NCBI RefSeq assembly: GCF_011045215.1
Contig: NZ_CP049201.1
Strand: one strand, 5' to 3'
From: Escherichia coli
GTDB taxonomy: Bacteria > Pseudomonadota > Gammaproteobacteria > Enterobacterales > Enterobacteriaceae
DNA length: 64,000 bases
Shown: positions 1-22,500 of the stretch, one piece after another
Position numbering within the stretch: position 1 is the stretch's first letter
How the letters are laid out: each line of letters starts with the position of its first letter
Notes under the pieces: model-generated
The model's input: only the letters and a program-made list of their open reading frames with translations
Told to the model about the DNA's origin: nothing
Database searches by the model: none
Program-made: the position numbers and the translations under genes

Positions 1-1311
1 CGGATGTGGACGAGAGTTCAGTATATGAAGCACATAACTATGAGTTTCACTGCCTATGTGCCCCGCCCATTCCAGAAGACGCTCTGGCGTCCAGGTGGCA
101 TGCTGTCGATGAGCTTCAGGCATGTGCTCGTTGCGGGTACTGTAGCCATAAGTACGCTTGCGCGGGTGCACAGCAACCTCCTGCCCCTGATTGAAGAGTC
201 TTACCAGTTCTCCGGAGATCCATGCTTCCAGTTGCTGGCCTAACAGCGAACATGGAACCGAGTAGTAATGTTTGTCGATTTCCACGTGGTAATCGGCATG
301 AACTCTGACTTTCTTCACCAGGGTGTAACTGTAACTGGCTTCAGGAAGAGGCTTCAGTGCGGGTTTATCAAGCTGGATGAAGAGTTCTGCACGTGAATAA
401 CCCAACTTCTGCATTATTTTGTTATTCAGTCTTTCCAGCAACTCCCGAATGCGCTGATTAAGCGATGCAAGGCTGTAGAAGATCTCATGCCTGATTCGGG
501 CCATGATCCAGCGTTCAACAACCTGAACGCCAACTTCAGCTTTGGCTTTATCTTTCGGTTTACGTGGCCGCGCAGGCAAAACTGCGACATTATAATGCTC
601 AAGCATCTGCTGGTAGGTAGGGTTAACGTCAGGATCATACTTACATGCCCTGGATGTGGCGCTTTTCAGATTGTCCGGAACAACAAGTTCAGGAACGCCA
701 CCCAACCACTGGAAGCAGCGAACATGACTCATCACCCAGTCTTCAAGCTGCTGAGACCAGGTGGCCTCTGCCCATGTGTAACTTGATGCCCCGAGAACAG
801 CTACGATGACCTGAGCAGTTCTTATTTCTCCGGTCTCAGGGTCGGTAACGCCAACGGTAGGTCCACAGTAATCAACGAAAAGTTTTTCGCCAGCTTTATG
901 TACCTGACGCATTGATGGTGAAGTGGTTTTGAGCCATTCACGGTACATCCGGCAGTAATGGTTATAGCTGTAAAAACCGCCTGGATTACGCTCACAGTAT
1001 TCTTCCCAGAGTAGCTGCAGCGTCACGCATTTATTACGCAGTTCCCGGTGTACTGTAGCCCAGTCAGGCAGAGAGTGCTTCTTCATCTTAACCTGGGTCT
1101 GAAGGAACGCATGTTTTAGTTTTGTATCATCCCATCCTGTAGGTAAGGGCCACTGCTTTATGCCAAGTTGAGCCGCCCGATTAGCATATCTGGATACAAC
1201 GGAAGGGGAGATTGCAAGACTACGACCAATTTGTCGATGGCTGAGTCCAACACCGTATTTAAGCCTAAGAATTTCTTTAAGTTTTCTCATAGAAATTGGA
1301 ACTGTTGGCAT
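1..1311 (-). CDS. istA: IS21-family transposase IstA, C-terminus truncated by window start
   Basis: Manual translation of minus strand: MPTVPISMRKLKEILRLKYGVGLSHRQIGRSLAISPSVVSRYANRAAQLG...VDYCGPTVGV...RPRKPKDKAKAEVGVQ...; N-terminal HTH plus IstA-type DDE integrase core, no stop through position 1. Confidence 0.8.
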   Translation of the reverse strand, partial: MPTVPISMRKLKEILRLKYGVGLSHRQIGRSLAISPSVVSRYANRAAQLGIKQWPLPTGWDDTKLKHAFLQTQVKMKKHSLPDWATVHRELRNKCVTLQLLWEEYCERNPGGFYSYNHYCRMYREWLKTTSPSMRQVHKAGEKLFVDYCGPTVGVTDPETGEIRTAQVIVAVLGASSYTWAEATWSQQLEDWVMSHVRCFQWLGGVPELVVPDNLKSATSRACKYDPDVNPTYQQMLEHYNVAVLPARPRKPKDKAKAEVGVQVVERWIMARIRHEIFYSLASLNQRIRELLERLNNKIMQKLGYSRAELFIQLDKPALKPLPEASYSYTLVKKVRVHADYHVEIDKHYYSVPCSLLGQQLEAWISGELVRLFNQGQEVAVHPRKRTYGYSTRNEHMPEAHRQHATWTPERLLEWAGHIGSETHSYVLHILNSRPHP

Positions 1312-1371
1312 AGGTATCCTTTACCGGAATGGCAAAAGATACAGATCAACACACCTGTGAAGTTCCAATAA
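1..1371 (-). mobile_element. IS21-family insertion sequence, partial (istA 5' part and left-end region; remainder off-window)
   Basis: Uninterrupted minus-strand frame from ATG at 1311-1309 to the window edge (absent from the ORF track because no stop lies in the window). Exact IS terminus not resolved. Confidence 0.6.
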
Positions 1372-2993
1372 CATTGATGGAGATCACTGAATAACAAAAT
1401 GAGTCAAAAGTGATCTCCATCGATGTTATCATATCCTTACCCATAAATCCGAGTGATGTTATTCTGTTGATAAATTAACCATAATTTAGAGGAACTATGG
1501 AAAACTGGGTTATTAAGGAGCTGGAATCTCTGAATGTTGGTGATATCAGGCTCGAAAAGCGAATAAAGCACGTTCTCAGTGTGCTTAGCCGTTCACCAAA
1601 GGAAAGTATTCCCGTATCCTGCCGTACCTGGAGTGAGACAAAAGCTGCTTATCGTTGCTTTTCCAGTGATAAAATTTCAGCCGATAAAATCATGGCTCCC
1701 CATAAGAAAAATATCATCGAAAGGACTAAACAGTTTAAACGGGCTCTGGTTTTACAGGATACGACTGAACTAAATTATTCTGGTCAAAAAAAGAAACAGG
1801 GCGTCGGTCCCAGACGACATGAAAATGAGCGAGATTTGTTTATTCACCCTCAATTGGTTATAAGTGATTCAGGTATTTGCTTAGGGGTTTATGATGATTA
1901 TCAATGGTTCAGAAAAGAACTCAAAACTCAGAAACAAAGTCGTAAAGAAATAACTAATGATTCACTTCACAGGAAACATATCAGTGAGAAAGAAACAGGA
2001 CGGTGGATAGAAGGATATAAAAAAGCAACAGAACTGGCTAGGTCCTGTCCTGATACCCAGATAATTTCTGTTTCAGACCGTGAAGGTGATATTTACGACC
2101 TCTTTGAGAGTGCAGAAAATGAAAGTGGGATAAAGGCTGACTGGCTCGTAAGAATGAAGAGCATTAACCGGGCTATACTGAATTCATCAGGAAAAAGAGA
2201 CTCATTACTCCTGAATGAAAAAATGATGCAGATTTTGCCACAGCAGATAATTGAGTTTACCCTTCCGGAAGGACGAGGACAACCTTCCCGCAAAGTCCAG
2301 CAGGAGCTACGCTTAGCAAGGTTGACGCTACATCCACCCACCGGTCGAAGAGGAAAGTTACGTTGTTCTCCGGTAACGGTAACTGTATTACTTGCAAAGG
2401 AAATAAATGCTCCAGAAAGTGTCCAGCCATTAGTATGGTGGCTAATGAGTAGTGTACCTCCAGAAAAGCTGACGGAACCCGCACAGCTTATTCAATGGTA
2501 TTTATTACGCTGGCAGATTGAAGTTTTCTTTAAGGTATTAAAAAGCGGATGTCAGGTTGAGAAATTACAACTTGAGACATTTGAACGCACAAGGAACTGT
2601 CTGGCCTTATACCTTATAATCTCATGGAGAATACTTTATCTTAGCTCATTGTATAAAATGGTTCCGGAGGAACCCTGTGATTTAATTTTCGAAAAGAAAG
2701 AATATGAGTATCTCTGGATATTGGTAGAGAATACGCCTCCACCTGAAAACATACCGAATATAAGAACGGCGGTTTTAATGCTTGCAAGATTAGGAGGATA
2801 TCTGGCAAGAAAAAATGATTCGCCTCCAGGCCCTAAGACTATATGGTCAGGATTAACACAATTAATGCTGTCAATTAATGCCATAGAAATAGCCCAGAAA
2901 ACTTGTGGGTAAGGGTATGCGATGTTATTCAGCGATCTGTTCAAATGTTATTACCCGATCTCGATGGAAGTTATTGAGTGATCTCCTTTCATG
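1372..2993 (+). mobile_element. IS4-family insertion sequence (IS50/Tn5-like transposase)
   Basis: 24-bp imperfect terminal inverted repeats: CATTGATGGAGATCACTGAATAAC (1372-1395) versus reverse complement of 2970-2993 CATGAAAGGAGATCACTCAATAAC (20/24 identical), bracketing the transposase ORF. Confidence 0.75.
1497..2912 (+). CDS. IS4-family DDE transposase (Tn5/IS50-like)
   Basis: 471 aa, ATG preceded by GAGGA; motifs LQDTTELNY, VSDREGDIYD, YLLRWQIEVFFK, ARLGGY match the Tn5 transposase catalytic regions. Confidence 0.85.
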   Translation: MENWVIKELESLNVGDIRLEKRIKHVLSVLSRSPKESIPVSCRTWSETKAAYRCFSSDKISADKIMAPHKKNIIERTKQFKRALVLQDTTELNYSGQKKKQGVGPRRHENERDLFIHPQLVISDSGICLGVYDDYQWFRKELKTQKQSRKEITNDSLHRKHISEKETGRWIEGYKKATELARSCPDTQIISVSDREGDIYDLFESAENESGIKADWLVRMKSINRAILNSSGKRDSLLLNEKMMQILPQQIIEFTLPEGRGQPSRKVQQELRLARLTLHPPTGRRGKLRCSPVTVTVLLAKEINAPESVQPLVWWLMSSVPPEKLTEPAQLIQWYLLRWQIEVFFKVLKSGCQVEKLQLETFERTRNCLALYLIISWRILYLSSLYKMVPEEPCDLIFEKKEYEYLWILVENTPPPENIPNIRTAVLMLARLGGYLARKNDSPPGPKTIWSGLTQLMLSINAIEIAQKTCG

Positions 2994-3271
2994 AAAATAC
3001 GCACCTCCTTCTCGCTCCTGAAAGATGGACAGTTTTGTATTCTTCGTTCATATTCACAGGTAACCTGCCCCAGAATATCCTCCGGCGGTGTCAGCCACTT
3101 ATTCCTGAGCAATACACTGGTTGATGAATGGCAGCAGGCTATTTCAGCAATAATTTCATGTAATATCTCCGGCCTGAATTTCTTCAGTTCATTGTGATGT
3201 TCCCGGGTAAAACCATGTTCATCGAACAAAAGCTGCCATATCATTGATATACTTCCTTTATTCATCATCAA
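2951..3271 (-). CDS. hypothetical protein (106 aa); 3' end overlaps the IS4 right inverted repeat
   Basis: ORF whose start overlaps the stop of the upstream PerC-like gene (ATGA overlap at 3268-3271). Last codons (RIFMKGDHSIT) are encoded by the IS terminal repeat, so the native C-terminus may be replaced. Confidence 0.3.
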   Translation of the reverse strand: MMMNKGSISMIWQLLFDEHGFTREHHNELKKFRPEILHEIIAEIACCHSSTSVLLRNKWLTPPEDILGQVTCEYERRIQNCPSFRSEKEVRIFMKGDHSITSIEIG

Positions 3272-3597
3272 TACCTGTTATCTGAATATCTACAGGTCAA
3301 TATACCTTTTCTGAATACCTCTCCGGACGGGCTGGCAATCCCCATTCGCCTCAGCGTGGCATCTGCAGCTTTTACCACTTCGCTGATATCCAGCTTTTCA
3401 GGTAGCGGCGGGGACGATATCTGCGTCAGGCAATAATTCCTGCGTAACAACAACCACTCCCGTTGTACTTCTGTACATTCAAAATTGCCCATAACAAATA
3501 GCCAGCGGGCAGAAGCTCTGCGCCAGTAACCTGCAGCCTCCAGTTTCTGTGCAACCGCGTCTTCCACAACCTCCGGGGTTCTCTTTTTCCTACTCAA
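3268..3597 (-). CDS. PerC-family transcriptional activator-like protein
   Basis: 109 aa; motif LEAAGYWRRASARW...QREWLLLRRNYCL resembles the conserved core of PerC/Pch regulators (from memory, not searched). Confidence 0.5.
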   Translation of the reverse strand: MSRKKRTPEVVEDAVAQKLEAAGYWRRASARWLFVMGNFECTEVQREWLLLRRNYCLTQISSPPLPEKLDISEVVKAADATLRRMGIASPSGEVFRKGILTCRYSDNRY

Positions 3598-4348
3598 AAC
3601 ATCAACTCACTGAAATAATACACATATCTGACGCTATCAGCGAACCGTCCATGCCAGGTTCAGTACCAATGCGTTCATCCGGCCAGCCCAGACGTGACAG
3701 GTCCCTGACAATATCAGGCATTGAGGTTATCTGATATTTTTCCTTTTCACTGCGTATTTAATCTACAGAATTTCCGGAACAGTCAGAAATTATAAGGTTA
3801 CGTGAAACGCTGCTCTAGATAACCTCTTCAGTAGTATTATCCTCTCATTATAAGTTACTATTTTTAACAACATTTTATCTCTGATTTACATGTTTATTTT
3901 AAAACATATAATATCTCTATATTGGTACTGAAACTGACAAAAACGAGACATGTTCTGACTACCGAACATCACCGGAATTTTCTCAGCAAATTTCCCATGT
4001 AGTCGAAAATGCCAAACTAAAGATGAGTTTATCTCTGCCATTAACCATGATTAATTGTGGATTTGTCTCTCCCCATGGATTTAAACACAATCATTATAAA
4101 CGTCTCGCAGTTATCTCCAGTTTGGTTGCCACTGTAACGGAATTATTTCCTGATAAATTTTATTCACTACGAAATTACTAACAACACCATTTTCTTTTAG
4201 CTATTGCGCAATAGCACTTATTTTATATGTCTCAGGAATATGCTGATGTGACTCAACTAAAGAAGTCTGTACCCATGGATTCCGTACAATAATATGAGCG
4301 CATTGTTCGAATCAGGTTTGTGTCTCCCGATACAATGTTTTTCAGACT

Positions 4349-7030
4349 TTAGCCCAACAGGCCTGACAGAAACGTTCCCAACTTCCCTTCTATATCACTG
4401 TCTATAGTACGTAATCTTAGCAATGGCAGGCCACATTTCTTCAGTATACTGTTTTTAAGTTCATCACGTTCAGCCTGAACACTGGTCAGATGATAACCTC
4501 CATCCACTTCAATAACCCCTAACGGAGCCTTCCCGACCTTATAGTAAACAACAAAGTCACAACTGGCACGGTTACGCATGAATAACTGTTCACGGTGTGT
4601 AAAATCCCCCCGCTCCAGCAACACCAACTGATTCAGCGCTATTTGTGAATGAAACATCATACTCCGATAACTATCCTGCGACAGGATATCCCGCAACAGG
4701 CAGGCCACAATCTGTTCTGACTTAAAGTGTGAATCATTTGAATTCAATCTACTATTCAGTCGTTCCAGTGATTTGTCATACTCACTGTACAGCAAATCAA
4801 ATGCTGATATGACCGGGCTCTCGAAAATCTCTCCGTCATCAGCGTAGTATTTGATGTAACGAATCAGCGCCGCAATATGTCCAGCGTGGCGTTCAAATAC
4901 ATCATTACCAGTCACCAGCGTAAATTTATTTCGGGCCCTTGAAACAGCGACATTCACCAGTTCAGGATTATCAACAAACGCGATGTTCCGACTTTGCTGG
5001 CTGCTGCGTTTCTTATCCAGCACAGTGGAAAACACAATTTCATCGCACTCCCGTCCCTGAAATTTATGCACCGTCGATTTCACAAAATCAGCAGGCAGCA
5101 CTTTTTCAGCCAGATTAACCTGTGCATTATATGGGGCAATGTATCCCCTGCTACTTTCTTCATCCCAGTAATGACCTTCCAGAGATTCAAGCTCCCTGAG
5201 ATTTGAAAAATTACGGGTATGGTTTCCTTTTGCCGTGATGACCAGAGATAATGAGGCTTCACCGGAATCAACCGTTAGCGGTATCAGAGCATTATCATAA
5301 AACTGCTTATTACAAAATTGAATGATTTTAGGATGACAGCGATAATGCTCTTTAAGAAGAGTTACTGGCACCATGTTCCTGAACAACATACAAACCGAAT
5401 CAAGTAGACTATATTTCTCACAATTATAGTATTCTGCCGGTGGAGATGGGCTGTTCGGGAGTAATACAGGAACATGTGGAAGTTGCTTACGATCCCCTAC
5501 AACGATTACATTACGGGCACATCCCAGTCCCAGAATGCCCGGAATAATATCCTGCTGTGAGGCTTCATCAATAATCACATAATCAAGAAGGGCACCCTTA
5601 CCGATTGAGTTAATAATCGAATGCGTGCTGCTACCAATAACCGGAAAACGCTTTATAAAATGGTCAAATTCATCCCTGTATGCTTCTGTCGAGAATGAAT
5701 TTCTTGTTGAAATATTTCTTCGCAGATGTTGCTTTAAATAAAGCATAGACCATGATATCAGGCGTTCCAGTAAAATTTTAAAATCAGATTCCTTTAATAC
5801 TTTCTCACATTCATTCAGAGAAAATTGCTTTTCCCGGATAGCTTTTTCATAATAAGAAAGCTGAAGAGAAGTAAATAGTGCCTGCCTTCTCTCCGGAATC
5901 ATCAATGGTTTGACTTTCAGTATCCTGAAGTTTAACAATAAATCAATTCTGTTTCTGAATCCAATCCGCCTGTCAGAAAGGTAATGAATATAAGCCATCA
6001 GGTCGGTTGTTTTTCGTGAGGAAAACCGATATTTGTGAGAAAAAAACTCCTCCGGTCGAAGATTCTGACTCTGCCATTGTTGCAGGTATTTATACTCAAT
6101 ACTCAGTTCATCAATTTCTGCTTTTAACGAAGCAACCTGGTTGATGGCATTCAGGTGTTTTTTCACTTGTTGAAGTACATCATCAATCGCATTTGCAGAC
6201 GGTGAATCAGATAAGGCTTCCTCAGAACGCGAAATCGACGTTGAAAAAAACTGTTGCCTGTTCTCCGTACTCCCCAGTCGTGCCACCACATATCCCAGTT
6301 GCTGTTTGTCCATCTTTTCATAAACATTACTGACAGCTGAGTTATTATTGGACAAAATTGCCACTGTTTTATTCTGAATTAATATATTAGCAACAATATT
6401 GAGTATAGTCTGTGTTTTACCTGTTCCAGGTGGTCCTTCAATAACTGAAATCTGTGAGGAAAATGCCCGTTCGACAGCCAGCAACTGACTTTCATTAAGA
6501 CCAAACGGAAAAATCAAACTCCATGGCGAATCACGTTTTTTACTCTGTCCTGAACAGTATGCATGCAAGGCGGTATCCGGATGAGGAACTATTTTCTTTA
6601 TCTGCCTAAGGATATTCTCATCGATATTTCGGTTATTACCACGAGCATAAAAAATACGTTCATTAGCCACCCTACACAAGTAATTAAACACGGCATGCTC
6701 TGTAAATGCTGAACACTGTTGAAAGTCAAGGCCGGTCGTTTTCATAATGTAGGGTCGTTCACCCTCGCGGTAATAAACAGCAGCATATTTATCACCATAT
6801 ATAATAACCCGTTCAGCCCGGGATGTTACAGCGTCCCCTTTCCTTTCGAGGAAAACATTTCGCAAATTTACAGTTGGCGTTATCTGACATACAGAAAGCG
6901 GACGAGTATATTTTTTCCCGCTGCGAAAATGACAGGTCAGCATAACCTCTCCGTCGTCATTTCCAGCCCACAGCGTCCAGTCGGTAATTTTATGAGTCTT
7001 ATTTTCACCGTCAACACAAATCGTGACCAT
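4349..7030 (-). CDS. SF1B (Upf1/DNA2-like) helicase fused to a C-terminal Vsr/DUF559/DUF2726-like endonuclease domain, with an uncharacterised ~180-aa N-terminal domain
   Basis: 893 aa; Walker A GPPGTGKT, Walker B IIDEASQ, VVGDRKQLP, HYRCHP, SRAR helicase motifs; C-terminal IEVDGGYH...ERDELK...GLPLLRL resembles PD-(D/E)xK Vsr-like nuclease folds. Confidence 0.75.
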   Translation of the reverse strand: MVTICVDGENKTHKITDWTLWAGNDDGEVMLTCHFRSGKKYTRPLSVCQITPTVNLRNVFLERKGDAVTSRAERVIIYGDKYAAVYYREGERPYIMKTTGLDFQQCSAFTEHAVFNYLCRVANERIFYARGNNRNIDENILRQIKKIVPHPDTALHAYCSGQSKKRDSPWSLIFPFGLNESQLLAVERAFSSQISVIEGPPGTGKTQTILNIVANILIQNKTVAILSNNNSAVSNVYEKMDKQQLGYVVARLGSTENRQQFFSTSISRSEEALSDSPSANAIDDVLQQVKKHLNAINQVASLKAEIDELSIEYKYLQQWQSQNLRPEEFFSHKYRFSSRKTTDLMAYIHYLSDRRIGFRNRIDLLLNFRILKVKPLMIPERRQALFTSLQLSYYEKAIREKQFSLNECEKVLKESDFKILLERLISWSMLYLKQHLRRNISTRNSFSTEAYRDEFDHFIKRFPVIGSSTHSIINSIGKGALLDYVIIDEASQQDIIPGILGLGCARNVIVVGDRKQLPHVPVLLPNSPSPPAEYYNCEKYSLLDSVCMLFRNMVPVTLLKEHYRCHPKIIQFCNKQFYDNALIPLTVDSGEASLSLVITAKGNHTRNFSNLRELESLEGHYWDEESSRGYIAPYNAQVNLAEKVLPADFVKSTVHKFQGRECDEIVFSTVLDKKRSSQQSRNIAFVDNPELVNVAVSRARNKFTLVTGNDVFERHAGHIAALIRYIKYYADDGEIFESPVISAFDLLYSEYDKSLERLNSRLNSNDSHFKSEQIVACLLRDILSQDSYRSMMFHSQIALNQLVLLERGDFTHREQLFMRNRASCDFVVYYKVGKAPLGVIEVDGGYHLTSVQAERDELKNSILKKCGLPLLRLRTIDSDIEGKLGTFLSGLLG

Positions 7031-7471
7031 ATTCTCACTCAGAAATTATCATTTAACTTACGGAAAATTGTTAAGGCACTCCCGATATTAGCTCCGGAGG
7101 ATTTTCCACAACCCCGGGACTGTTAACATATTTCTGCCTGCCATATATACATTGAATTCAGTCATAACAGTCAATACCAGAATTACAGGAACGCGATGCC
7201 GATACGCTCGTTATTGAATACAGATAGCCCTGGCACTAATTCATCACGATACTCTGTATTTACTATTTTCACTGCTTTTTACAACCATTCCCCCAGGTAA
7301 AAAAGTCCATTTATCATGCTCCTCTTTAACGCCTGTCAGCCTAATTTAAGAATGGATACCGTGGGTGGAATTAACAATACTTACTCAGGCCAATGCCATG
7401 TAACCGCCTCACTGAAAAAGCCAGATCAGCTAACCAGGCACAGACCAACATCGCAAAAATTACCATGCAGC

Positions 7472-7507
7472 ACGCGCGTATTTTCATGGAAGGAGATCAT
7501 CCAATAA
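7472..7507 (+). repeat. Solo copy of the IS4-element terminal repeat plus 9-bp outside flank
   Basis: 7484-7507 CATGGAAGGAGATCATCCAATAAC matches the IS right-end repeat 21/24; the preceding GCGTATTTT also matches the sequence just outside the IS right end (2994-3002, complementary strand). Confidence 0.6.
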
Positions 7508-7656
7508 CGGCGTTTTTCAAGGAAACGAATCTCTTTGATTATCTATGGTGTGTACATTCTTTTGGGTTTATTTTCCATTACCATGTTTTATCAGCCATTA
7601 TGGCTGCCTCACTGGTTTGCCAGCGTGTTCCACCTGATAACGATTAATCAACTGAT

Positions 7657-8874
7657 TCAGTGCCATTTCAGCCTGTTTTTGATGCTAAACACCTCCGTTT
7701 TCAGTTCACTGACCGTCATGTATTTTCCCCGCTGTTCATCCAGACGGTTCAGGCGCTCAGCCAGCTGCTGTAAGCGGGTCATGCCTTCGTTCCAGCCCGT
7801 CATTGCCTCTTCCGGGAGCGCACGACTCCTTATGCTCTTCTGCCAGTTATCCACCATTTCCTGAACACGGGGATTGCCGGGGAAAAGTCCCCTCAGTTGC
7901 TGCAGCAGCTGCGCACTGCGTTGCAGATTGTATGCCGGGGGTAATTGTGTCAGCCGCGTTATCTGCTGACCGGAAAGGGTTATCCACTCTGACGCATGAT
8001 TTAACAATGAGGATGTTCTGCTGAGCTGTGTCATCTGGTCTGCTGAAAGCACATCCGGTGGTGGTGTCAGCAGCGCCCTGAGTTGCTGCTCTGCCGGTGA
8101 TGACTGTGTCAGAAACTGCCATCCCGGAATGACCACGCTGACAGTCAGCAATGCCGCACAGACACCAGCCAAAAACGGCTTCAGAAACATGGACGGGAAT
8201 TTCTGAAGGGAGGGTGTGGGCTCTGTTTTTGTTTCAGAAACAACATACACCAGACGGGAGTGCGGCAGGGGCTGATGTTCCTGTACGTCCCGAGCATCAG
8301 ACCGGAGTGCCTGAGCCGGAAGGGTTACCGGAGACGACGCTTCGCCCTGTACAGGCTGGTTCTCCAGACGGGTGATATATCCCTTCACCATGGCTTCCGG
8401 CAACGCCACTTTACTGCTCTGTTTAAGTTCGTGCCGGGCCAGTGTGTCACTCAGTGCCTTCAGGAATGTTTCGGTCTGATACAGCAGGGGCAGATTGTCA
8501 CGGTCGTCCGGTGGCATGGCCCGGAGCGTTTTTTGCAGACGGTTGAACAGACCGGTAATAATTTCCAGCCGGGCATGGGTATTCAGCGGCCACATCACTG
8601 ACCAGTGATGCCGGGTCAGCGCCACAATCAGAGCCAGCCCTTCATTCAGGCCACTTAACCCTGTTGTATGCATCCGGGCAATGGTGTACCAGGATGCCGT
8701 CTGCAATTCCACGCCATTGTGTTCATACAGACGCAGGCAGAGCGTTTCCACGTAACGCCAGTCAACATCCGGGCGTGCCGGGTGGGTCAGTTTGCTGATT
8801 TCATCGCGCAGGGCAGCATAATCCGGTAATGACCGGGGGTCACCACCGGTTTTTAGTTTCACTTCAGAAGTCAT
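7657..8874 (-). CDS. ImpA_N-domain (TssA/VasL-like) protein with a central transmembrane helix
   Basis: 405 aa; N-terminal DWRYVETLCLRLYEHNGVELQTASWYTIARMHTTGLSGLNEGLALIVALTRHHWSVMWP follows the ImpA_N pattern; hydrophobic segment FLKPFLAGVCAALLTVSVVIPGW. Confidence 0.55.
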   Translation of the reverse strand: MTSEVKLKTGGDPRSLPDYAALRDEISKLTHPARPDVDWRYVETLCLRLYEHNGVELQTASWYTIARMHTTGLSGLNEGLALIVALTRHHWSVMWPLNTHARLEIITGLFNRLQKTLRAMPPDDRDNLPLLYQTETFLKALSDTLARHELKQSSKVALPEAMVKGYITRLENQPVQGEASSPVTLPAQALRSDARDVQEHQPLPHSRLVYVVSETKTEPTPSLQKFPSMFLKPFLAGVCAALLTVSVVIPGWQFLTQSSPAEQQLRALLTPPPDVLSADQMTQLSRTSSLLNHASEWITLSGQQITRLTQLPPAYNLQRSAQLLQQLRGLFPGNPRVQEMVDNWQKSIRSRALPEEAMTGWNEGMTRLQQLAERLNRLDEQRGKYMTVSELKTEVFSIKNRLKWH

Positions 8875-9299: not shown

Positions 9300-11126
<1,827 letters not shown>

Positions 11127-13352: not shown

Positions 13353-13571
13353 CTATTTACGATAGTATCTTCGCATTTGTAGATAGAGTTGTAACCAAAT
13401 CCCAGCACCTCCCCATAAGCCAACTACTGCGCCAATTATTCCGTATTTTACATACACCTCAGAAGGTATTGGTTCCCGAGCTATAAACCAGATACTAACC
13501 ACTATTCCAATAGAGCAAGTAGCTATAGATATAAGTAACAACTTAATAAGAAGTAGTAGATGTTTTTTCAT
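13353..13571 (-). CDS. cdiI: CdiI immunity protein (72 aa, two TM helices)
   Basis: Start overlaps the cdiA stop (ATGA at 13568-13571); hydrophobic two-helix protein. Confidence 0.7.
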   Translation of the reverse strand: MKKHLLLLIKLLLISIATCSIGIVVSIWFIAREPIPSEVYVKYGIIGAVVGLWGGAGIWLQLYLQMRRYYRK

Positions 13572-16500
13572 TTTTTGTCTCCATCAACTTCTTTTTGCGT
13601 TGCGCTGCTTGCACCTTCTGATACGAATGAACCAACAAATCCACCAAATGTTCCTGGTATAGAACTCATTTGGCCGCCTTGATACATACCGTATCCGATA
13701 GACTTTTCCGAATATTGCAGTGAATATTTACTGGCGTCCATTCCCAGTTGATTTTTGATGTATTGAGCTTCTAACTTATTAGTAATTGAAGCGCCAATGT
13801 TATAGCCAAGGCCTGTACCAGCCATGCTACCCACTACTGATGCGGTACTGTCCTGGCCTTCAATCTGGCTGCTCATGTAAGCGCTACCGGCACCCAACAA
13901 CTGGTTAGCGTAATATCCTTTCCCGGCTGTACCTACACCAGTCAAGCCTGACATCATGAAACTGAGATAATCGAACTTATCACCGATATTTCCCGTACCA
14001 ATTTGTACCGCACCATTAGCCCCATAGCTCAGCCCGGCACTAACAAATTTTTCCGTCAGCGTGGCTGATGACGTTAACAACGAACCCGCTCCGGCAACCG
14101 TACCCCAGTAATTTTCCGGTTCCCCGAAGAAAGCCAGAGCCCTGTCACCCTTCGACGTATTACTGTTCAGATAATTCAGGTCGTAGCTGTTGCCTTCAGC
14201 CACGTAATCCTTCACCTCCTGATTAGTCAGTGAACCATACAGCCAGCTAGGTCGGCCCGCCGCGCTGAGCCCGCCCTCAATATTCCATTTATCTTCCCCG
14301 GACAGAGCCGTCAGAGGATCTGCGGCCACATCAATGTGTAATTTCTGTCGGTTCTCTGCGCTTAATACAGCATATTTATTCTGAATATCGCCGCAGTCTC
14401 CACCCGCTTTACGACAGGCCGTCATTTCTCTGTCAAAAGCATGCGCCTCGTCGTAGCTGAGGTAGTTATTCTCAACTGTTGTCTTACCTGACTGTGCGCC
14501 GGCTACCGCTGAAGCCCCCGAGTCGCCCACCAGACCACCGGCCAGGCCGGCAGCAACCGTTGCCAGCGTGGAGACCGTCTGTTTCTCTGTCTCACTCAGT
14601 TCACTCACCGGTTTATCGTACATCTGTGTGGCTATCATTCCCACCACCTCGCCGGTGGCTGCACCTGCAGCACCGGCAAGAGCATTATTTCCCTGTGCCA
14701 GAGACAGTGCGGCATTCACCACGGCATGGGCGGCCACATTTGCAGCCTTATTCACCTCACCTGTAACCGGGTCTGTGGTCATGGTTTTCACCACTTCAGC
14801 CAGATACGGTGCTGCACCACCTGCCAGGGCTGCACTCAGATTACCGCCGGCCAGCCCCTGTACTGCTGCCGTTGCGGCCTGTATCGCCTGCTGGTATTTG
14901 CCTCCCGTTCCAAAACCGGAGGCCGCCATACCGTTATTGTAAGCCCGCTGTGCCACATCCTGTTCCGTGAACGGTTTTCCTGCTGCCTCAAGCTCTGCAC
15001 GGGCCTGATTCAGTGCTGCCGGGTCCCGTTTCGCTTTCTCACCGGCTATCTGTCCTTCCGTTCTGGCAATATCTGCCACCTGGTTACCAATCTCACCAAT
15101 GAGTTGCGCCTGCTGCAACCGCTGCTGCTCTTTTTCCCTGTCAAAGATGGGGGACAGCGTCTGGTTTGCATGCGCAACGTCACGGTTCAGGTCTGCCACA
15201 TCCTGTTTCTGGCTCTGTGTATCCCGGATAGTGATATTCCCGGCAGACACAGCCGACTGCGTGGTACTGTCCGCATGGCCTTCATGATTTGCACCGACCA
15301 GCAGATTGTTTGCCATGTTCCCCAGGAAATTTCCGGCAACACTGCCACCGGTACTGAGCCCTGCACTCTGATGTTCCGTTTTAAAGTCAGCCCGGTTTTC
15401 AGTGTCACTGAAGCCCAGTGTGCCGGTATCCAGCCTGTTTTTATCTGCCGTTGCCGTGGACGCAATCACCGCACCGTTCAGTTGTGTATGCTGTCCGGTC
15501 GTGACATCAAACCCGCCCCTGCCGGCAAAAATCCCTGTCTGCTCCTGCACACTGTCGTGGTTACTGTGCATTTTATCCCGGCTGAGGCTCACACTCGCCG
15601 AACCGCTCATGGACCCGAAAGTGAAGCTGCCTCCGGCGCTGGCATTCTGCTGTTTACTGTCATAATGGTCACTGTCCTGCTCACTGGTCAGTGTCAGATG
15701 GCGACCGGCATCCACTTTCACGGTTTCTCCACTGGCCTGCGCCCCGGTAAGTGTGGTGTCACGCCCACTGATAATGGTCAGCTGTTTTCCCGCATCCACC
15801 GTGGTTTCTGTATGGGTGGTACCGTTGCCTTTTTCACTGCCCTTACCCTGGTTTGCGCTGGCTGACAGACTGAAACCAGGCCCTCCGGGCCCCACACCGA
15901 TACCGACACCCACGCTGCCACCACTGGATGTGTTCTTTCCTTCCAGCTTTGACGTGTTTTCTGCTGATACCAGATTCACGTCACGGTTTGCCTGCAGCAG
16001 AACGTTGTTCCCGGCCTTTATCTGACCGCCCTGTATCGTCAGGTCACCATCCACGCCCTTCACGCCGGAGCCGGTGGCCTGAATACTGAGGTTATTACCT
16101 GCGGTCAGTGTACTGCCCTTCGCCACCGTCTGCTCTGACTGCTGTTCTGATTTCGAAGACTGGCTGCCGTAAGAGAGGCTGATACCCACGGTATTGTTAT
16201 TCTCTTTCTGGTTGCCCTGTGCTTCTGCCAGTCGTCCGGCCTGCACGGCCTGAGCCCCCGAGAGCGCGGCCTTCACCCCCTGCAGGGCTTCAAGCCGGCT
16301 GTTTCCGGCAGATTTCGCCGCCTGTACGGTCTCCACCGTCGTGTTCAGGGCGCTGCCCGCTGTGCCGGACAGGGCAAGCGTCAGACCGGAGGTTTTCTGC
16401 TCCACCGTATGTGTCTGCACATGCCGGTCAGTGGCGGCGGTAATGCTGACCTCCTTACCACTGAGTGCCATGTCCCTGCCGGCAATCAGGTCAGAGCCGT

Positions 16501-19500
16501 TGACGGTCAACCGGTTACCTGCCTGAAGGGAAACATCACCGTGAACACTCCCCACCGTGCTGCCTTTCTGCGTGGTGTCTGTTGCGGTGTCCGTGACCTT
16601 CAGACTCTGGCTGCCCACGCTGAATCCCACACCTCCGGAGCTCATCAGTCCGGATTTTTTCTCCTGTTTCAGGTGTGTTTCACGGTTGCTTTCTGTCAGC
16701 GTTCCGATACTCAGGTTATTTCCGGCAGCCAGGGAGACACGGTTATCCCCGGCCACACTGCTGCCCGTGACGTTCAGATTATGTCCGGCACCGATACTGA
16801 CCGTATCCCCGTTCAGTTCACTGCCCGTCATGGTCCGGCGGTCAGTGACATCATGCGTGGTAGTGGTGGTTTTCGATAACATCCCGCTGTTGCCGGTCAC
16901 TTTATGGTATTCATCCAGCGAGCGGGTATTCTGTGCACCGGTCAGCGTCACGTCATGACCCGCCATCAGGGCCAGGCCTTTCTGAGCTGACAGCAATGCC
17001 GCCTGTGACGTCATATCCCGTCCGGCGGTCAGCGTGACATCACCGTTACCGGCAAGCGTGCTGCCCGTACTCTGTGTGACGCCCTGCGACAGACGATTAT
17101 TTTTATCCCAGATAATATTGTCCTGCGCGGATGTGGTCACTGTGGAGAATGTCATATCCCTGCCGGCACTGAGTTGCGTCAGACTGTCCTTACCCTGGTT
17201 CACCACCGTTGCTGCCGTCAGGTTTATGTCCCGTCCGGCCTGCAGCACCAGTCTGCCCTGGTCATTCTGCACATATACGCCAGCCACACTGTCGATGCTG
17301 GTACGTTCAAAATGGTTCTGTCCGGCGTCACTCTGTGCCGTACGGGTGGTGGTGGTCAGACTGATATCCCGTCCGGCCATCGCCAGCAGGCTGTCCGTGG
17401 CCTGCAGCAGCCCGCCGGTACTGTTAATATCCGTCCGGGCCGTCAGGCTGACATTTGCTCCCTGAATGGTGCCGGCCTGGTTGTGAATGTTTTCTGCACT
17501 GAGCTGCACGGCCTGCTTCCCGGCCAGTTTACCGCTGTTAAACAGGTCACCATCCAGCTTCATCACCATGTCCCTGCCGGCAATCAGCGCACCGGCACTG
17601 TTCACATCACCGGGTTTTACACGGGCATACACCTGAGGTACCTGAACCGTCTGCGTGCTGCCGTCCGGCAGTGTCACCGTGGTGTTAACCAGCCAGACAA
17701 TATCACCGGTCAGTAACGCCATCTGCTCAGCAGTCAGCGCCACACCTGGTGTCAGGTTGTATTGCTTACCAAATGCAATACCCGCATCCATTAACGCCTT
17801 AAACTGCTCTTCATCATTACTGTATCCGTCCAGGTACCGTTGCCCGGTCAGAGCGACAACCTGCTCACGAATCAGACGCTGTTCGTAAAAACCATCCCCC
17901 AGGCGTTTGAGCATGTTATCCCCGTTCTGAGAAAACGCCTTCTGCATGTAATCACTGCCCAGCCACGTCTTCTGGTTCGTAAAACGCGGGTCCGTTTCAA
18001 CCAGATATGGCACATTCACTGCCGGATTTGTTTTAAACAGGCTGCTGTCCGGCAGACGGGTATCCGGCCCGGCAACATGGATACTGCCCTGAGGTGCGCT
18101 GACTTCAAACTGCTGCCCCGGCAACAGAATGACCGGTTCACCGGCTGACACCACCGGGCGAAGCGGTATCCGGTCAGTAACGGCTACTGTCGCATCCACA
18201 TTTCCGGTCAGTCCTGTCTGTACATCCGTTCCCTGTGGCTTCAGGGGAGAAAGCGTGACCTGGCTGCCCTGAACCTGTCCGTGGCTGGTGAGCTCTCCCG
18301 GCTTCAGCGTGATGGTCTGAATGACGGGGGGCGGCTCGTAAGGGGAAATTCTTTCCCCCTGCCTGTCATTTTTATTTTTTCTTTTTATCCGGTAATAATA
18401 TGTGGATGTCCCTTTATCAGTAACATGGCGCTCTCCGCTGACACTGACGTTTTCCACATCACCGGCCTGCATATCCAGCAGACCACCTGCAACCACCTGG
18501 CTCTTGTCATTAAGCAGTTTGTCTGCCACAACCGTCATGCCGGCACCGGACAGTATTTTCCCCGGGTCGGAGTCTTTTACCCGGGTTTCCTCCACGGTAC
18601 GGGTGTATTCATATTTTGTGAACCGGTCGTTGTTATGTCCGGTATCATCCGGCGTGTTCAGGTTCAGCAGTCCATCAGAGGAGTTGTTATCAATGAACAC
18701 CCCCTCATCTTTTGCATTCCAGCGGACATCTGACCCGCGATGCTGATACTCAGTCACCTTTTCCGTGGAAACCACCACGCGCTCCGTGGTGAAATGGTCA
18801 TTGACGTTATTGATTTGTCCGGCACTCAGTACCAGATATCCGGCGGCTTCAATAGTGGCACTGTGATTATTCAGTACACCGGTTTTACCTGTGGCGGTGC
18901 CATTCGCATCCAGCGTGCCACCGATATGCATATCACCTGCACTGTAAATCAGGCTGTGCGTCCGGTTATTCAGGGTCTGTACCCCCAAGTCCACACGCTC
19001 ACGCCCGGCCAGCGTCGCCGCCACGCCATTTTCTTCCAGATTATTAAATGTGGCAGCACTGACACCAACAGCATCGCCGTAGATTCGCCCGGTACCGGAA
19101 TTCGTCAGGGTGTTCGCCTGAAGATGCGTATATTTCCCGTCAATCAGCCCACGGTTCAGCAGTGTGTCCGTCACGTTAAGCCAGGTCTGCCCGGCACTGA
19201 TTTCACCTTTCCCGGTGTTTTCAAGGCGGATGCTGTTCAGGTCAAGTCGGCTGCCTGCCAGCAGGCTGCCGGTATTAGAGACATCGCCATTAACGGAAAG
19301 CGTAAGGTTTCCGTTCGCAATAGTCTGACCACTGTTACTGAACGCTGTGTTACTTTTCAGCGTTATATCGCCCGGGGAAAGCAGTTTCCCGTCACCACCG
19401 AGCTGACCGGCATCCACAGAGACTGACTGCCCGGCCTTAACCACACCGTCACGGTTCGAAAACGCCAGCTGACGGCCACTGACAGACAATGTCGCGCCGG

Positions 19501-22500
19501 AAGAGAGCACGCCATCATTATTACTGAGCGTCCTGTCTGCCATAACCGTAAGCGCCCTGTCTGCCAGAATACTGCCCTCCTGGTTATCAAGGTCCTGCGT
19601 CGTGATGTGTATTGTCTGCGCTTCCAGCCCCTGGCCGGTATTCTGCGTGTGGCGATTGATAAACTGCAGGGCGTTCAGCGTAATGGCAGAACCACTGCGA
19701 ATCAGACCAGAGACGTTGTCCACAACGCCCCGTACACTGTCGAACAGAATGTCGCCCACAGACTGTATCTGTCCGTGGCTGTTCTGCAGGCCTCCCGTAT
19801 GCAGACGGAGTTCACCTTCACTGACCAGCCGGCCACCCTCACGGTTATCCAGCGAGGTGGTGCTCAGGTCAGCTGTCGTTTTCGCCCCCACGGTCCCGCC
19901 CCGGTTATCCATTGCTCCGGTACTGACAGTCAGTTCCTGCAGGCTGTTCAGCGTACCCCCTCTGTTATCCAGCGTCCGGCCTGCGCTATTAATGCTGATG
20001 CCTTTCCCCTGAATAAGACCGGACTGATTGTTCAGCGCCAGACTGTTCCGGCCGGGCAGACCGGTCGCCACAATCTGACCATTCGCCACCACCTGACCGG
20101 ATGTATTGTTAACCACGCCTGCAGTCAGGGACAGCGCATCTCCCGACAAAAGCACACCGGCAGTGCTGTCCAGTGTGCCGGCATTCAGCGTCATCGGGCC
20201 CTGACTGATAACCCCGCCCCGGTCACCACTGTTACGGTTGCTCAGTGTGTCAGCACGGAGATTCAGTGTGGCACCGCTCTGTATCAGACCACCTGCATCA
20301 TTGCTGATATCCGTCGAGGAAAGGGTCAGTGACTGCTGTGCCACCAGTCTGCCGCCCTGATTATCAGAGCGGGTGACATCCAGCCTGCTGTTACCGTTGC
20401 TGACCACCGTCCCCTGCTGATTTTCCAGCACATTCAGGTGCGCATTCAGGTCCCCGCCGGCGGCAAGCGTCCCTTCCTGATTACTGACATCGCCACCACT
20501 CAGCAACATATCCGTCCCGGCCTTCAGTGCGCCTTTCTGGTTCATCAGCGTACCTGACGATATCTGTAATGACGCCTGACTCCCCAGCACGCCCTGACGG
20601 TTATCGAGCGTTCCGGCGTTCAGGGTCATATCCTTCTGACCCGCCATAAATCCCTGCTGGTTATTCAGCATACCGGCCCGTACTGTCAGGGTACCGGCGC
20701 TGCTGATACCACCCCGTGTTTTCGTGTTCCGGTTACTGAGAACCCCGTCCTGTACATCCAGCGTCATGTCACTGCCGGACTGAATCAGACCATCATCAGA
20801 GACCAGTTCGCTGCCTGACACAGACAGCGTTTTCTGTGAAAGCAGTCTGCCGGACGTATTATCCAGCGCACCATCCAGCGTCACGGACAGCCCGTCAGAC
20901 ACCACCGTACCCTGGTGGTTATTCAGACTCCCTGCCGAAATATCCAGCCTGCCGGCGGACTCCATTCGTCCCTCAGTATTGCTGACAGCCTGCTGTGTTT
21001 TTATCCTGCCCGTTCCGGCAGCAGCTGAAATCAGTCCGTTGTCGTTATTCAGTGCCTGTGTATTAATCAGGATGTCACGGCTGGCAATCAGACTTCCCTG
21101 CTGGTTATCCACGGCGCCGGTTGTCCTCACCTGCAGACTACCTGACTGCGCCGCCTGCACTTTCCCCCTGCGATTATCAAGGCTCAGTGCATCCAGGCGC
21201 ACCGCGCCATTTGCCGCAAGCAGCCCTTCCCGGTTATCCACGCTTCCCGGCAGACTCAGCGAAAAATCCCCTGTTCCCGTCTGAATCAGACTGCCTTTAC
21301 GATTTGACAGGCTCTGTGCCGATATCTGCAGTGTGTCGGCATTTACCGTGCCACCATTATTGCTGAACTGCCCGGCAGTCCGGGCGGAAAGCGTACCGGC
21401 ACTCAGTTGTGCATTCTGTGTGGACAGATTTCCGCTGCCTGCATCCAGCTCAGTATGTTGTCCCTGTATCCGGCTGTTGCTTAAATCCAGCCCCTGCCCC
21501 TTCAGTTGCATGTCCCCACCGGACAGAACCTGTCCGTGTGCCGCCAGTTCGCCGGTGGTACTGACAGTCAGGTTGCCCGCTGCCGCCAGACGTCCGTCAT
21601 CTTTCACCCCGGCGGCCAGCAGACTCCGCTCACCGCCGGTCAGACGCGCTGTCTGAATCCGGGTGTTGCGGCGTGATGCCACAGAGCCTGTATGGGTGAA
21701 TGCACCATCACTCTGTATCTGCGTATCCTGCCCCGCATAAACAGAACCACTGTTATGCAGCTCCCGGGTTGTCGCCAGATGCACATCCGTTTTCGCACTG
21801 ATACTGCCACTGTTTTCAATACGTCCGTCAGCCGTCAGGGTAACCGCCCCTGCCTGCGCACCAATATGACCGGCGTTACGAACCCCCACCCCCGTTTCCG
21901 TACCGACAAGGCGAATTTTTCCGGCATACATTCCACCAAGGCTGGACACATCCAGCGCCACCTGTGGCTGCGAAGAGGCATCAGCGGCTTTTTTCTCAGT
22001 CTGCCCGTGTGCAATATCCACATTGTTACGTCCGGTGGTCACTTTCAGGTCCTGCGCCCAGATACCCGCATTAATCTTCACAGACCGGGCAATGATATCG
22101 GTATAATCCGTGCGCGAGGCATCCATCCCTTTGCCCGTAATCTGAATCTCACCACGTTCAACACTGAATCCGGTCAGACTGCCGTTTTTCATCTGAGGCT
22201 GCCCCGTGGTCAGCGTGGCCCGGTTCGCATTAATAAAACCGCACCCGTCGCAACTGATGCCGGCCGGGTTCGCAATCACCACCTGCGCCTTTTTCCCGGC
22301 AACCTCAACAAAACCGTTCAACTGGCTGGGATTGCGACTGTTCACTTCATTAAGAATGATTCGGGCCTCTCCCTTCGCCAGCCACGGGTTACCGGCAACC
22401 ATGCCGCCCAGTTGGGTCTGCACATTTTTATGCGAGTTATTCAGAATGACACCCTGATGACTGACATCAAACTGACTGTAAGTATTGTGCGATACCCCAC

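What the first reader, a model, noticed from the sequence alone, without database searches (positions are those of the whole stretch)
1372..7507. IS4-family element inserted beside an IS21 istA, with a third solo IS-end copy bracketing the PerC/helicase segment
The IS4-type element (1372-2993) has 24-bp imperfect terminal repeats and sits 60 bp upstream of the IS21 istA start, probably within the IS21 end. A third copy of the same end (7484-7507, 21/24 match) lies 4.5 kb away. It shares an extra 9 bp (GCGTATTTT) with the sequence just outside the intact IS right end. The PerC-like gene and the 893-aa helicase-nuclease gene are therefore flanked by two IS ends in a composite-transposon-like arrangement, the second IS copy being almost entirely decayed. 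This could explain how the helicase-nuclease cargo was mobilised.
Basis: seen in the sequence. Interest (0 to 1): 0.55.

Follow-up and report, generated by a model that had tools for sequence, protein, structure and literature searches.

The report
Nested insertion sequences, not a composite transposon

Summary
The repeats exist, but they were assigned to the wrong element.

- **IS4-family element:** it spans 1430-2919 (1490 bp, 17-bp inverted repeats, perfect 9-bp target duplication CGATGTTAT), not 1372-2993.
- **Host element:** with it removed, the flanks are 100% ISEc12 (IS21 family), whose left tip is at 3003.
the "24-bp terminal repeats" are ISEc12 nt 11-34 and 110-133. The "extra 9 bp" is the ISEc12 tip.
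- **Third copy (7475-7510):** a 36-bp relic of the left end of an ISEc12-like element. It differs from ISEc12 at 4 of 34 positions. It is identical to half of a 68-bp relic that is single-copy in 555 E. coli genomes.
- **PerC/helicase segment:** about 1,500 E. coli genomes carry it, mostly once; in the three inspected it lies beside the same T6SS remnant without these ends. ISEc12 cuts a 214-aa gene and has no target duplication. The composite-transposon reading is not supported.

Unexpected result: this Tn5-like clade (52-100% transposase identity) inserts at GATC-N5-[target]-N5-GATC in 26 of 27 distinct half-sites. Most lie in IS21-family left ends, in both orientations. Two near-identical assemblies carry this copy precisely flipped.

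The parts
1..1420 (-). ISEc12 (IS21 family) body, element nt 85-1504. The istA gene runs from its ATG at 1311 down to window base 1, where the window cuts it.
   Evidence: With the IS4 element and one duplication copy removed, 1504 nt are 100% identical to the ISEc12 copy of pMG101_B. IstA matches NF033546 at 311 bits, above the cut-off of 160.
1421..1429 (.). Target-site duplication, copy 1 (CGATGTTAT), equal to ISEc12 nt 76-84.
   Evidence: Identical 9-mer at 2920-2928, directly abutting both IS ends.
1430..2919 (+). The true IS4-family (Tn5/IS50-like) insertion sequence, 1490 bp. Left repeat 1430-1446 (CATATCCTTACCCATAA), right repeat 2903-2919, transposase ORF 1497-2912 (471 aa).
   Evidence: All full-length E. 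coli matches stop exactly at these ends. Other copies have perfect 9-bp duplications (L004 TTGGCATTC; L020 and L021 TTGGCATCA). The transposase matches NF033590 at 347 bits, above the cut-off of 160, with Pfam Tnp_DNA_bind, DDE_Tnp_1 and Dimer_Tnp_Tn5.
2920..3003 (-). ISEc12 left terminal 84 nt, with the tip TG at 3003. It contains duplication copy 2 (2920-2928) and the GATC-containing terminal repeats.
   Evidence: 100% ISEc12 identity ends at 3003 in thousands of E. coli copies. The reference copy shows TG...CA termini and a 5-bp duplication CCTGG.
1372..1395 (+). It is ISEc12 nt 110-133, an internal inverted copy of the terminal repeat, and part of the palindrome 1368-1388 / 1409-1429 upstream of istA.
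   Evidence: Coordinate conversion; inverted repeats I5 and I6.
2970..2993 (-). It is ISEc12 nt 11-34, inside the 34-nt left terminal repeat.
3004..3271 (-). N-terminal part of a 214-aa hypothetical gene, cut by ISEc12. The C-terminal 371 bp present in relatives is absent here.
   Evidence: Window 3004-3658 aligns to L002 6001-6664 at 89%. The intact gene in STEC409 is L002 5630-6274.
3268..3597 (-). PerC-family regulator gene.
   Evidence: Pfam PerC PF06069, E = 1.2e-32. The orthologue is annotated PerC family in RefSeq.
3740..4129 (.). Lineage-specific filler that replaces ibrB and ibrA (about 1.9 kb) of related islands.
   Evidence: BLAST gaps against L002 and L003. Window 3660-4140 has no megablast match in 5,426 E. 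coli genomes.
4349..7030 (-). 893-aa SF1 helicase with a C-terminal DUF2726 (nuclease-like) domain.
   Evidence: Pfam AAA_11, AAA_12 and DUF2726. Partial helicase-core matches to MkoA/MkoC and Hhe, none full length.
7475..7510 (+). Relic left end of an ISEc12-like IS21-family element (CGCGTATTTTCATGGAAGGAGATCATCCAATAACGG). Its interior would point right. It replaces about 60 bp present in related genomes.
   Evidence: 4 of 34 mismatches to the ISEc12 left repeat. It is 100% identical to L003 9001-9036, the left half of a 68-bp left-end plus right-end relic. Junction comparison with STEC409, TUM13754 and CFT073. No right-end partner occurs anywhere in the window.
7657..8874 (-). VasL/ImpA-type T6SS gene, marking the conserved chromosomal neighbour of the island.
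   Evidence: RefSeq annotations of orthologous regions.

Best explanation
The region is a nest of three unrelated transposition events in a chromosomal island, not a composite transposon.

1. ISEc12 (IS21 family, 2581 bp, istA/istB) sits with its left tip at 3003 inside a 214-aa gene of a PerC / (ibrAB) / helicase island that adjoins a T6SS remnant. This copy lies on a rearrangement junction, because it has no target duplication.
2. A 1490-bp Tn5-like IS4-family element (1430-2919) then inserted into ISEc12 nt 76-84, probably by cut-and-paste with a 9-bp staggered cut. It duplicated CGATGTTAT. The site lies midway between two GATC motifs of the ISEc12 terminal repeat array (GATC-N5-[9 bp]-N5-GATC).
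3. At 7475-7510 lies a 36-bp relic of the left end of an older ISEc12-like element. The rest of that element and about 60 bp of flank were deleted.

Shown: the element boundaries, the duplication, the ISEc12 identity, the relic's identity, the synteny of the island in other genomes, and the GATC spacing rule.

Inferred: the order of events, the cut-and-paste chemistry (from Tn5 family knowledge), and that the GATC pair is what the transposase recognises.
For: - IS boundaries: 33 genomes match only 1430-2919. The element has 17-nt inverted repeats (I21) and a 9-bp duplication.
- Host element: the sequence with the IS removed is 100% ISEc12 over 1504 nt, ending at 3003. The reference copy has TG..CA ends and a 5-bp duplication.
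- Family assignments: IS4 and IS21 transposase models both score above their curated cut-offs.
- Island: present at about 95% identity in STEC409, ECL27829 and TUM13754 next to the same T6SS genes, without ISEc12 and without the relic at that junction. 1,518 genomes have a match, median one place per genome.
- No duplication for ISEc12 at this locus: GGAGG on one side, ATGAT on the other, in the near-identical locus L017.
- Relic: identical to half of a 68-bp relic that is single-copy in 555 genomes.
- Target rule: GATC lies 16-18 nt from the IS end in 21 of 22 unique flanks, which are 17 of 18 distinct half-sites. Nine further half-sites from relatives of 84%, 62%, 60% and 52% identity all fit, giving 26 of 27 by my tally.
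- Motif rarity: the only intact GATC-N19-GATC sites in the 64-kb window are the two other ones in the ISEc12 end.
Against: - The window starts inside istA, so the right end of ISEc12 and its flank were seen only in L017 and L018, not in the window's own genome.
- The origin of the relic at 7475 is unresolved. It could be an independent old insertion followed by deletion, or a displaced half of the 68-bp relic.
- ISfinder could not be queried, so the IS4-family element's name and its curated ends are untested.
- Many of the GATC half-sites are paralogous repeats of IS21-family ends and are therefore not independent observations.
Confidence: 0.85

Rival explanations
1. An IS4-type element spanning 1372-2993 with 24-bp terminal repeats, plus a decayed second copy at 7484-7507, forms a composite transposon that mobilised the PerC and helicase genes.
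For: The 24-nt repeats and the third copy are real and non-random.
Against: - The IS4 element ends at 1430 and 2919 in every other copy and has its own repeats and 9-bp duplication.
- The 24-nt repeats are ISEc12 sequence, present in ISEc12 copies that lack any IS4 element.
- The third copy carries the ISEc12-type tip.
- The cargo is syntenic in genomes lacking these ends.
Confidence: 0.02
2. A modified composite model. ISEc12 on the left and a once-complete ISEc12-like element on the right, both presenting left ends to the cargo as in an inverted-repeat composite such as Tn5 or Tn10, moved the 4.5-kb PerC/helicase block here as an IS21-type compound transposon.
For: The geometry fits. Two left-type ends at 3003 and 7475 face away from the cargo, with element bodies pointing outward.
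Against: - The block and both its neighbours are collinear in other E. coli at the same chromosomal site. Homology continues past 3004 into the rest of the 214-aa gene, and past 7474/7515.
- ISEc12 is 100% identical to current copies, while the relic differs at 4 of 34 positions and matches an old fixed relic. The two are of different element type and age.
- ISEc12 has no flanking duplication.
- No E. coli genome has the block elsewhere with these ends.
Confidence: 0.04
3. The link between the IS4-family element and IS21-family ends is hitch-hiking, not target choice. The small IS entered an IS21-family element once and has since travelled as its passenger.
For: - ISEc12 carrying the IS in the same orientation occurs in two different contexts (L013 and L017).
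- Relatives at 57% and 52% identity also sit about 100-126 bp upstream of an istA.
Against: - Perfect 9-bp duplications occur at three different sites in two different IS21-family elements (ISEc12; ISSso4 sites 1 and 2), and in both orientations, with 100%-identical IS copies.
- Non-IS21 sites obey the same GATC spacing (L014, and L038 with a perfect duplication).
Confidence: 0.12
4. The opposite orientation of the IS in the window compared with L017 and L018 reflects a real in-situ flip (excision and re-insertion, or conversion from another ISEc12 copy carrying the IS). The alternative is two independent insertions into the same hotspot.
For: The flanks are 99.8-99.9% identical, the duplication is the same, and the IS is 100% identical but reversed, including the distinguishing mismatches in its repeats.
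Against: - Independent hits of one site in both orientations are documented in one genome at two ISSso4 copies (L020 and L021, both with perfect duplications).
- Recombination between the 17-nt repeats is excluded, because the repeat mismatch 5 nt from the tip is also swapped.
Confidence: 0.35

Closest known systems
ISEc12 (IS21 family; istA/istB)
   Same: Window 1-1420 plus 2920-3003 is 100% identical to annotated ISEc12 copies. It has a TG tip, multiple GATC-containing terminal repeats, and an IstA that scores above the model cut-off.
   Different: This copy is interrupted at nt 76-84 by another IS. In the near-identical locus L017 it lacks the usual 5-bp target duplication.
IS50 / Tn5 (IS4 family, Tn5-like transposases)
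   Same: A single 471-aa DDE transposase with Tnp_DNA_bind, DDE_Tnp_1 and Tn5 dimerisation domains. Short terminal inverted repeats and a 9-bp target duplication.
   Different: Only family-level protein similarity. RefSeq gives it the generic name 'IS4 family transposase'. Its targets are flanked by GATC at fixed spacing. From memory, Tn5 has only a weak 9-bp target consensus.
Insertion sequences that target the ends of other transposons (from memory: IS231A into Tn4430 terminal repeats; IS4321/IS5075 into Tn21-family 38-bp repeats)
   Same: An IS found preferentially inside the terminal repeat region of another mobile element, which produces nested elements.
   Different: Here the host is the left end of IS21-family elements, both orientations occur, and the apparent determinant is a symmetric GATC-N19-GATC frame that also works outside IS21 ends. 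My literature searches found no description of this.
Composite transposons (Tn5, Tn10 type)
   Same: Two IS-type ends in inverted orientation bracket a 4.5-kb gene block.
   Different: The ends belong to different elements of different age. One is a 36-bp relic. No flanking duplication was found (not fully testable here), and the block is fixed at one chromosomal site in other genomes.
Solo terminal repeats and internally deleted IS relics (MITE-like remnants)
   Same: 7475-7510 is a lone IS21-type left end. Relatives carry a 68-bp left-end plus right-end remnant.
   Different: The 68-bp remnant is single-copy and positionally fixed in 555 genomes, so it does not behave as a multicopy MITE.

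Membership tests
IS4 family (Tn5-like) insertion sequence | DDE transposase of the IS4/Tn5 type | tested here: met
   NF033590 at 347 bits against a cut-off of 160. Pfam PF14706, PF01609 and PF02281.
IS4 family (Tn5-like) insertion sequence | Terminal inverted repeats at the element ends | tested here: met
   1430-1446 / 2903-2919, 17 nt, 88% complementary (I21). The same ends occur in all copies.
IS4 family (Tn5-like) insertion sequence | Target-site duplication (9 bp for Tn5-like elements) and copies in different contexts | tested here: met
   CGATGTTAT in the window; TTGGCATTC in L004; TTGGCATCA in L020 and L021; TGATGCCAG in L035.
IS4 family (Tn5-like) insertion sequence | Named ISfinder entry with curated ends | not testable with these tools
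   ISfinder is not available here. RefSeq calls the protein only 'IS4 family transposase'.
IS21 family (ISEc12) | IstA transposase, with the IstB helper downstream | tested here: met
   IstA matches NF033546 at 311 bits against a cut-off of 160. istB lies off-window but is present in L017 and L018.
IS21 family (ISEc12) | TG...CA termini with multiple repeated terminal sequences | tested here: met
   The tip TGCGTATTTTCATGAAAGGAGATCACTCAATAAC ends at 3003. Repeats occur at 2947-2963 and 2970-2986, with an inverted copy at 1379-1395.
IS21 family (ISEc12) | Short target duplication flanking the element | tested here: not met
   The reference copy has CCTGG on both sides. At this locus, seen in L017, the flanks are GGAGG and ATGAT. 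This concerns this copy's history, not its family membership.
Composite transposon | Two copies of the same IS flanking the cargo | tested here: not met
   The left element is ISEc12 interrupted by the IS4 element. The right one is a 36-bp relic of a different ISEc12-like element, with 4 of 34 mismatches and no right-end partner in 64 kb.
Composite transposon | The cargo moves as a unit bounded by the IS ends | tested here: not met
   The block has a median of one place per genome. In the genomes inspected it lies beside the T6SS remnant, and homology crosses both proposed boundaries.
Composite transposon | Target duplication flanking the whole unit | tested here: inconclusive
   The outer end of the left IS is off-window, and the right IS is deleted. 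In L017 no duplication flanks ISEc12 itself.
Target-specific IS (inserts into ends of other transposable elements) | Independent insertions recurrently at the same kind of site | tested here: met
   There are three sites in two IS21-family elements, in both orientations. 26 of 27 distinct half-sites have GATC 16-18 nt from the IS end.
Target-specific IS (inserts into ends of other transposable elements) | Experimentally shown target preference | not testable with these tools
   This needs a transposition assay.

The most novel reading that the evidence does not exclude
The 1490-bp element belongs to an undescribed clade of Tn5-like insertion sequences (transposases 52-100% identical, ends CAYATCSTTACCCATAA). 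The clade selects a symmetric target, GATC-N5-[7-9 bp duplicated]-N5-GATC.

ISEc12- and ISSso4-type IS21-family elements pack several such frames into their left terminal repeat arrays. The clade therefore behaves as a parasite of another IS. It lands in either orientation about 100-200 bp upstream of istA, where it is harmless to the host and is carried along.

GATC is the Dam methylation site, so insertion could be coupled to the methylation or replication state.
Probability: 0.55. Interest if true: 0.55.

Novelty: new member of a known kind. Interest (0 to 1): 0.33.

Why it matters
For the finding as written, the result is corrective. IS boundaries read from the longest nearby inverted repeat were wrong, because IS21-family ends carry their own repeat arrays. 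The helicase-nuclease gene belongs to a conserved island, and the evidence here does not support its mobilisation by these ends.

The by-product has more value. It is a sequence rule, GATC-N19-GATC, that predicts where a whole clade of Tn5-like elements lands, and it explains recurrent IS-in-IS nesting in Enterobacteria and in environmental bacteria. If confirmed, it would give a defined, symmetric target preference for a Tn5-type transposase. That bears on how these enzymes capture targets and on engineering more site-selective Tn5 derivatives. It would also improve IS annotation.

Tried and rejected
- **Source genome not found.** An exact-match scan of 100,044 species-representative genomes for the ISEc12/IS4 junction found nothing. 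A scan for the 24-nt core of the relic also found nothing. So neither the source genome nor a full-length parent of the relic was recovered.
- **Plasmids.** There was no match to the relic. Only fragments of the IS4-family element were found, on 4 plasmids.
- **EC31.** Its ISEc12 match appeared to run 24 nt past the tip, but it lies in an unrelated tRNA-Gly island. The extension was chance.
- **No shared junction.** No complete E. coli genome shares the ISEc12 insertion point or the ISEc12/IS4 junction.
- **Literature.** Searches on ISEc12, ISSso4, and IS4 family with IS21 and target specificity returned nothing describing this nesting.
- **Uninformative relatives.** P0107 (40% identity) is not next to an IS21 element. 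For P0016 (50% identity) too little flank was available and the right end was not located.
- **Inversion by recombination between the IS's own repeats.** Rejected, because the repeat mismatch 5 nt from the tip is swapped too.
- **The relic as a decayed copy of the neighbouring ISEc12.** Rejected: 4 of 34 differences from a 100%-conserved element, and identity to an old fixed relic.
Full report
**Observation.**
- 1372-1395 and 2970-2993 are a 24-nt inverted repeat, 83% complementary (I6).
- A third copy lies at 7485-7508, one base off the stated coordinates.
- Its similarity to the right-hand copy extends to a 40-nt inverted repeat, 2970-3009 / 7469-7508, 85% complementary (I1).
- A 33-nt degenerate version of this end occurs exactly twice in the 64-kb window, against 0.00 expected from shuffles.

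**True boundaries of the IS4-family element.** A megablast of window 1300-3100 against 5,426 complete E. coli genomes found 33 genomes with the element. Every match stopped at window 1430-2919.
- That 1490-bp stretch has its own 17-nt inverted repeats, CATATCCTTACCCATAA / TTGTGGGTAAGGGTATG (I21).
- It is flanked by a perfect 9-bp direct repeat, CGATGTTAT, at 1421-1429 and 2920-2928.
- Other copies end at the same bases and have their own 9-bp duplications, for example TTGGCATTC in strain 357900.
- The 471-aa product matches the NCBIfam IS4-family model above its cut-off (347 bits against 160) and carries the three Tn5-type Pfam domains.

I removed 1430-2928 and searched the rejoined sequence.
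- It matches ISEc12, an IS21-family element, at up to 100% identity in thousands of E. coli places. Identity ends at window 3003.
- Over all 1504 nt visible in the window there is no mismatch to the ISEc12 copy on plasmid pMG101_B.
- That reference copy is 2581 bp with TG...CA ends and a 5-bp duplication, CCTGG.
- The ISEc12 left terminal repeat is TGCGTATTTTCATGAAAGGAGATCACTCAATAAC.
The left one is nt 110-133, an internal inverted copy. The "extra 9 bp outside the IS" is nt 2-10 of the ISEc12 tip.
It sits at ISEc12 nt 76-84, 118 bp from the istA start.

**The third copy.** Window 7475-7508 differs from the ISEc12 left repeat at 4 of 34 positions.
- Window 7475-7510 is 100% identical to L003 9001-9036 in E. 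coli ECL27829.
- There it forms the left half of a 68-bp remnant, made of a left and a right IS21-type end with the interior deleted.
- That remnant, with its flanks, is single-copy in 555 E. coli genomes. In the two genomes where I placed it (ECL27829 and STEC409) it lies on the other side of the same island.
- In the window only the 36-bp half is present. It replaces about 60 bp that STEC409 and TUM13754 have at this junction, and CFT073 retains part of that stretch on the T6SS side.
- No right-end-type partner exists anywhere in the window.
- No full-length element with this end was found in E. coli genomes, plasmids or species-representative genomes.
- It is an old IS21-family relic. How it reached this junction is unresolved.

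**Is the PerC/helicase block a mobilised cargo?** The evidence says no.
- Window 3004-8000 has matches in 1,518 E. coli genomes, at a median of one place per genome and almost always chromosomal.
- In STEC409, ECL27829 and TUM13754 the block lies beside the same T6SS remnant (VasL, ImpA, TssE/J/G/F), with no ISEc12 and no relic at the helicase/VasL junction.
- Homology continues to the left of 3004 through the remainder of a 214-aa gene that ISEc12 interrupts in the window.
- Relatives carry ibrB and ibrA between PerC and the helicase. The window has an unrelated ~390-bp filler at 3740-4129; window 3660-4140 has no E. coli megablast match.
- PerC is confirmed by Pfam (E = 1.2e-32).
- The 893-aa protein is an SF1 helicase with a C-terminal DUF2726 domain.

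**The ISEc12 copy lies on a rearrangement junction.** A look-up of the exact transposase sequence recovered two draft assemblies, L017 and L018, with the same locus. Their flanks are 99.8-99.9% identical to the window. They show the ISEc12 right end that the window lacks.
- The flanks are GGAGG on the left-tip side and ATGAT on the right-end side, so there is no target duplication.
- The DNA beyond the right end is unrelated to the island.

**Unexpected findings.**
- In L017 and L018 the 1490-bp IS sits at the same site with the same 9-bp duplication and is 100% identical, but it is precisely reversed relative to the window.
- Nine of the ten places returned for this transposase lie in left-end (tip) sequence of IS21-family elements. 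The sites are ISEc12 nt 76-84 and ISSso4 sites TTGGCATTC and TTGGCATCA, each in both orientations and several with perfect duplications.
- Relatives do the same. A 57% relative from peat metagenomes is next to an IS21-family element in 5 of 6 places, in both orientations. A 52% relative and an 84% relative also lie in IS21-type left ends.
- The flanks share one geometry, GATC-N5-[duplicated target]-N5-GATC. GATC lies 16-18 nt from the IS end in 21 of 22 unique flanks, which are 17 of 18 distinct half-sites.
- Nine additional half-sites from relatives of 84%, 62%, 60% and 52% identity all fit, giving 26 of 27 by my tally. These include sites that are not IS21 ends, namely L014 and L038, the latter with a perfect duplication.
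- In the window the only intact GATC-N19-GATC frames are the two others in the ISEc12 end, against 0.85 expected per 64 kb. The rarity of the motif and its clustering in IS21-type ends explain the nesting.
- Many half-sites are paralogous repeats, and no experiment was possible. The rule is therefore strongly suggested, not proven.

**Verdict.** The finding describes real repeats but misassigns them.
- The structure is an unnamed Tn5-like IS nested in ISEc12, plus an unrelated IS21-type relic, in a conserved island. This is ordinary genome wear, not a composite transposon.
- The apparent GATC-framed target rule of this IS clade, and the flipped copy in sister genomes, are the parts worth following up.
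- My searches found no published description of them. ISfinder could not be consulted.

Noticed in passing
window 1430-2919, compared with L017 9934-11423 and L018 9934-11423: Two draft E. coli assemblies (GCA_023901375.1, GCA_012442205.1) carry the same locus with flanks 99.8-99.9% identical. The IS is at the same site with the same 9-bp duplication, but it is precisely reversed.
   Followed up: partly
window 1407-1429 and 2920-2942; L004, L008, L013-L040 IS flanks: 26 of 27 distinct half-sites next to ends of this Tn5-like clade (52-100% transposase identity) have GATC 16-18 nt from the IS end. That is GATC-N5-[target]-N5-GATC, and it includes sites that are not IS21 ends.
   Followed up: partly
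L016 9896-11461; L023 around 1175-2705; L040 around 475-2020: In three lineages the Tn5-like IS is flanked by two inverted copies of a short IS21-type tip (about 35-80 bp). This mimics an IS with long terminal repeats. It probably arose by recombination between oppositely oriented nested copies.
   Followed up: no
L003 9001-9068 (also L002 about 5521-5589): A 68-bp remnant made of the left and right ends of an ISEc12-like element with the interior deleted. It is single-copy with conserved flanks in 555 E. coli genomes and is annotated inside a 'hypothetical protein'.
   Followed up: partly
L017 9845-9849 and 13930-13960: ISEc12 at this locus has no target duplication. The sequence beyond its right end (ATGATCGATTTTGTCGATCGATTCGATCG...) looks like another GATC-repeat array and is followed by an outer-membrane beta-barrel gene.
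   Followed up: partly
window 3740-4129: A filler that replaces ibrB and ibrA of related islands. Window 3660-4140 has no megablast match in 5,426 E. coli genomes. It contains only short ORFs.
   Followed up: partly
window 9300-11126 (minus strand): A 608-aa NERD plus UvrD-type helicase that matches the PADLOC candidate defence model C3a187 over its full length (E = 2.7e-141). The 893-aa helicase has only partial MkoA/MkoC helicase-core matches. The island looks like a defence-gene hotspot beside a degenerate T6SS cluster.
   Followed up: partly
window 1368-1388 / 1409-1429: A 21-nt, 95% complementary palindrome inside ISEc12 (nt 96-137), about 60-120 bp upstream of the istA start. It is built from the same GGAGATCACT motif as the terminal repeats and may be an IstA operator.
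   Followed up: no
L013 9850-12006: A third context for ISEc12 carrying the IS, in the same orientation as L017. Here ISEc12 is truncated at nt 1924, and P4-cII, Beta_protein and Peptidase_M78 genes lie between it and VasL in place of PerC and the helicase.
   Followed up: partly
window 13568-22804 (minus strand): A single 3078-aa ORF. It was not examined.
   Followed up: no
window 47000-59000: The eilA / type III secretion translocon (ETT2-associated) region. Its best identity to any complete E. coli genome is only 97.4%, so the source is a lineage poorly represented among complete genomes.
   Followed up: no
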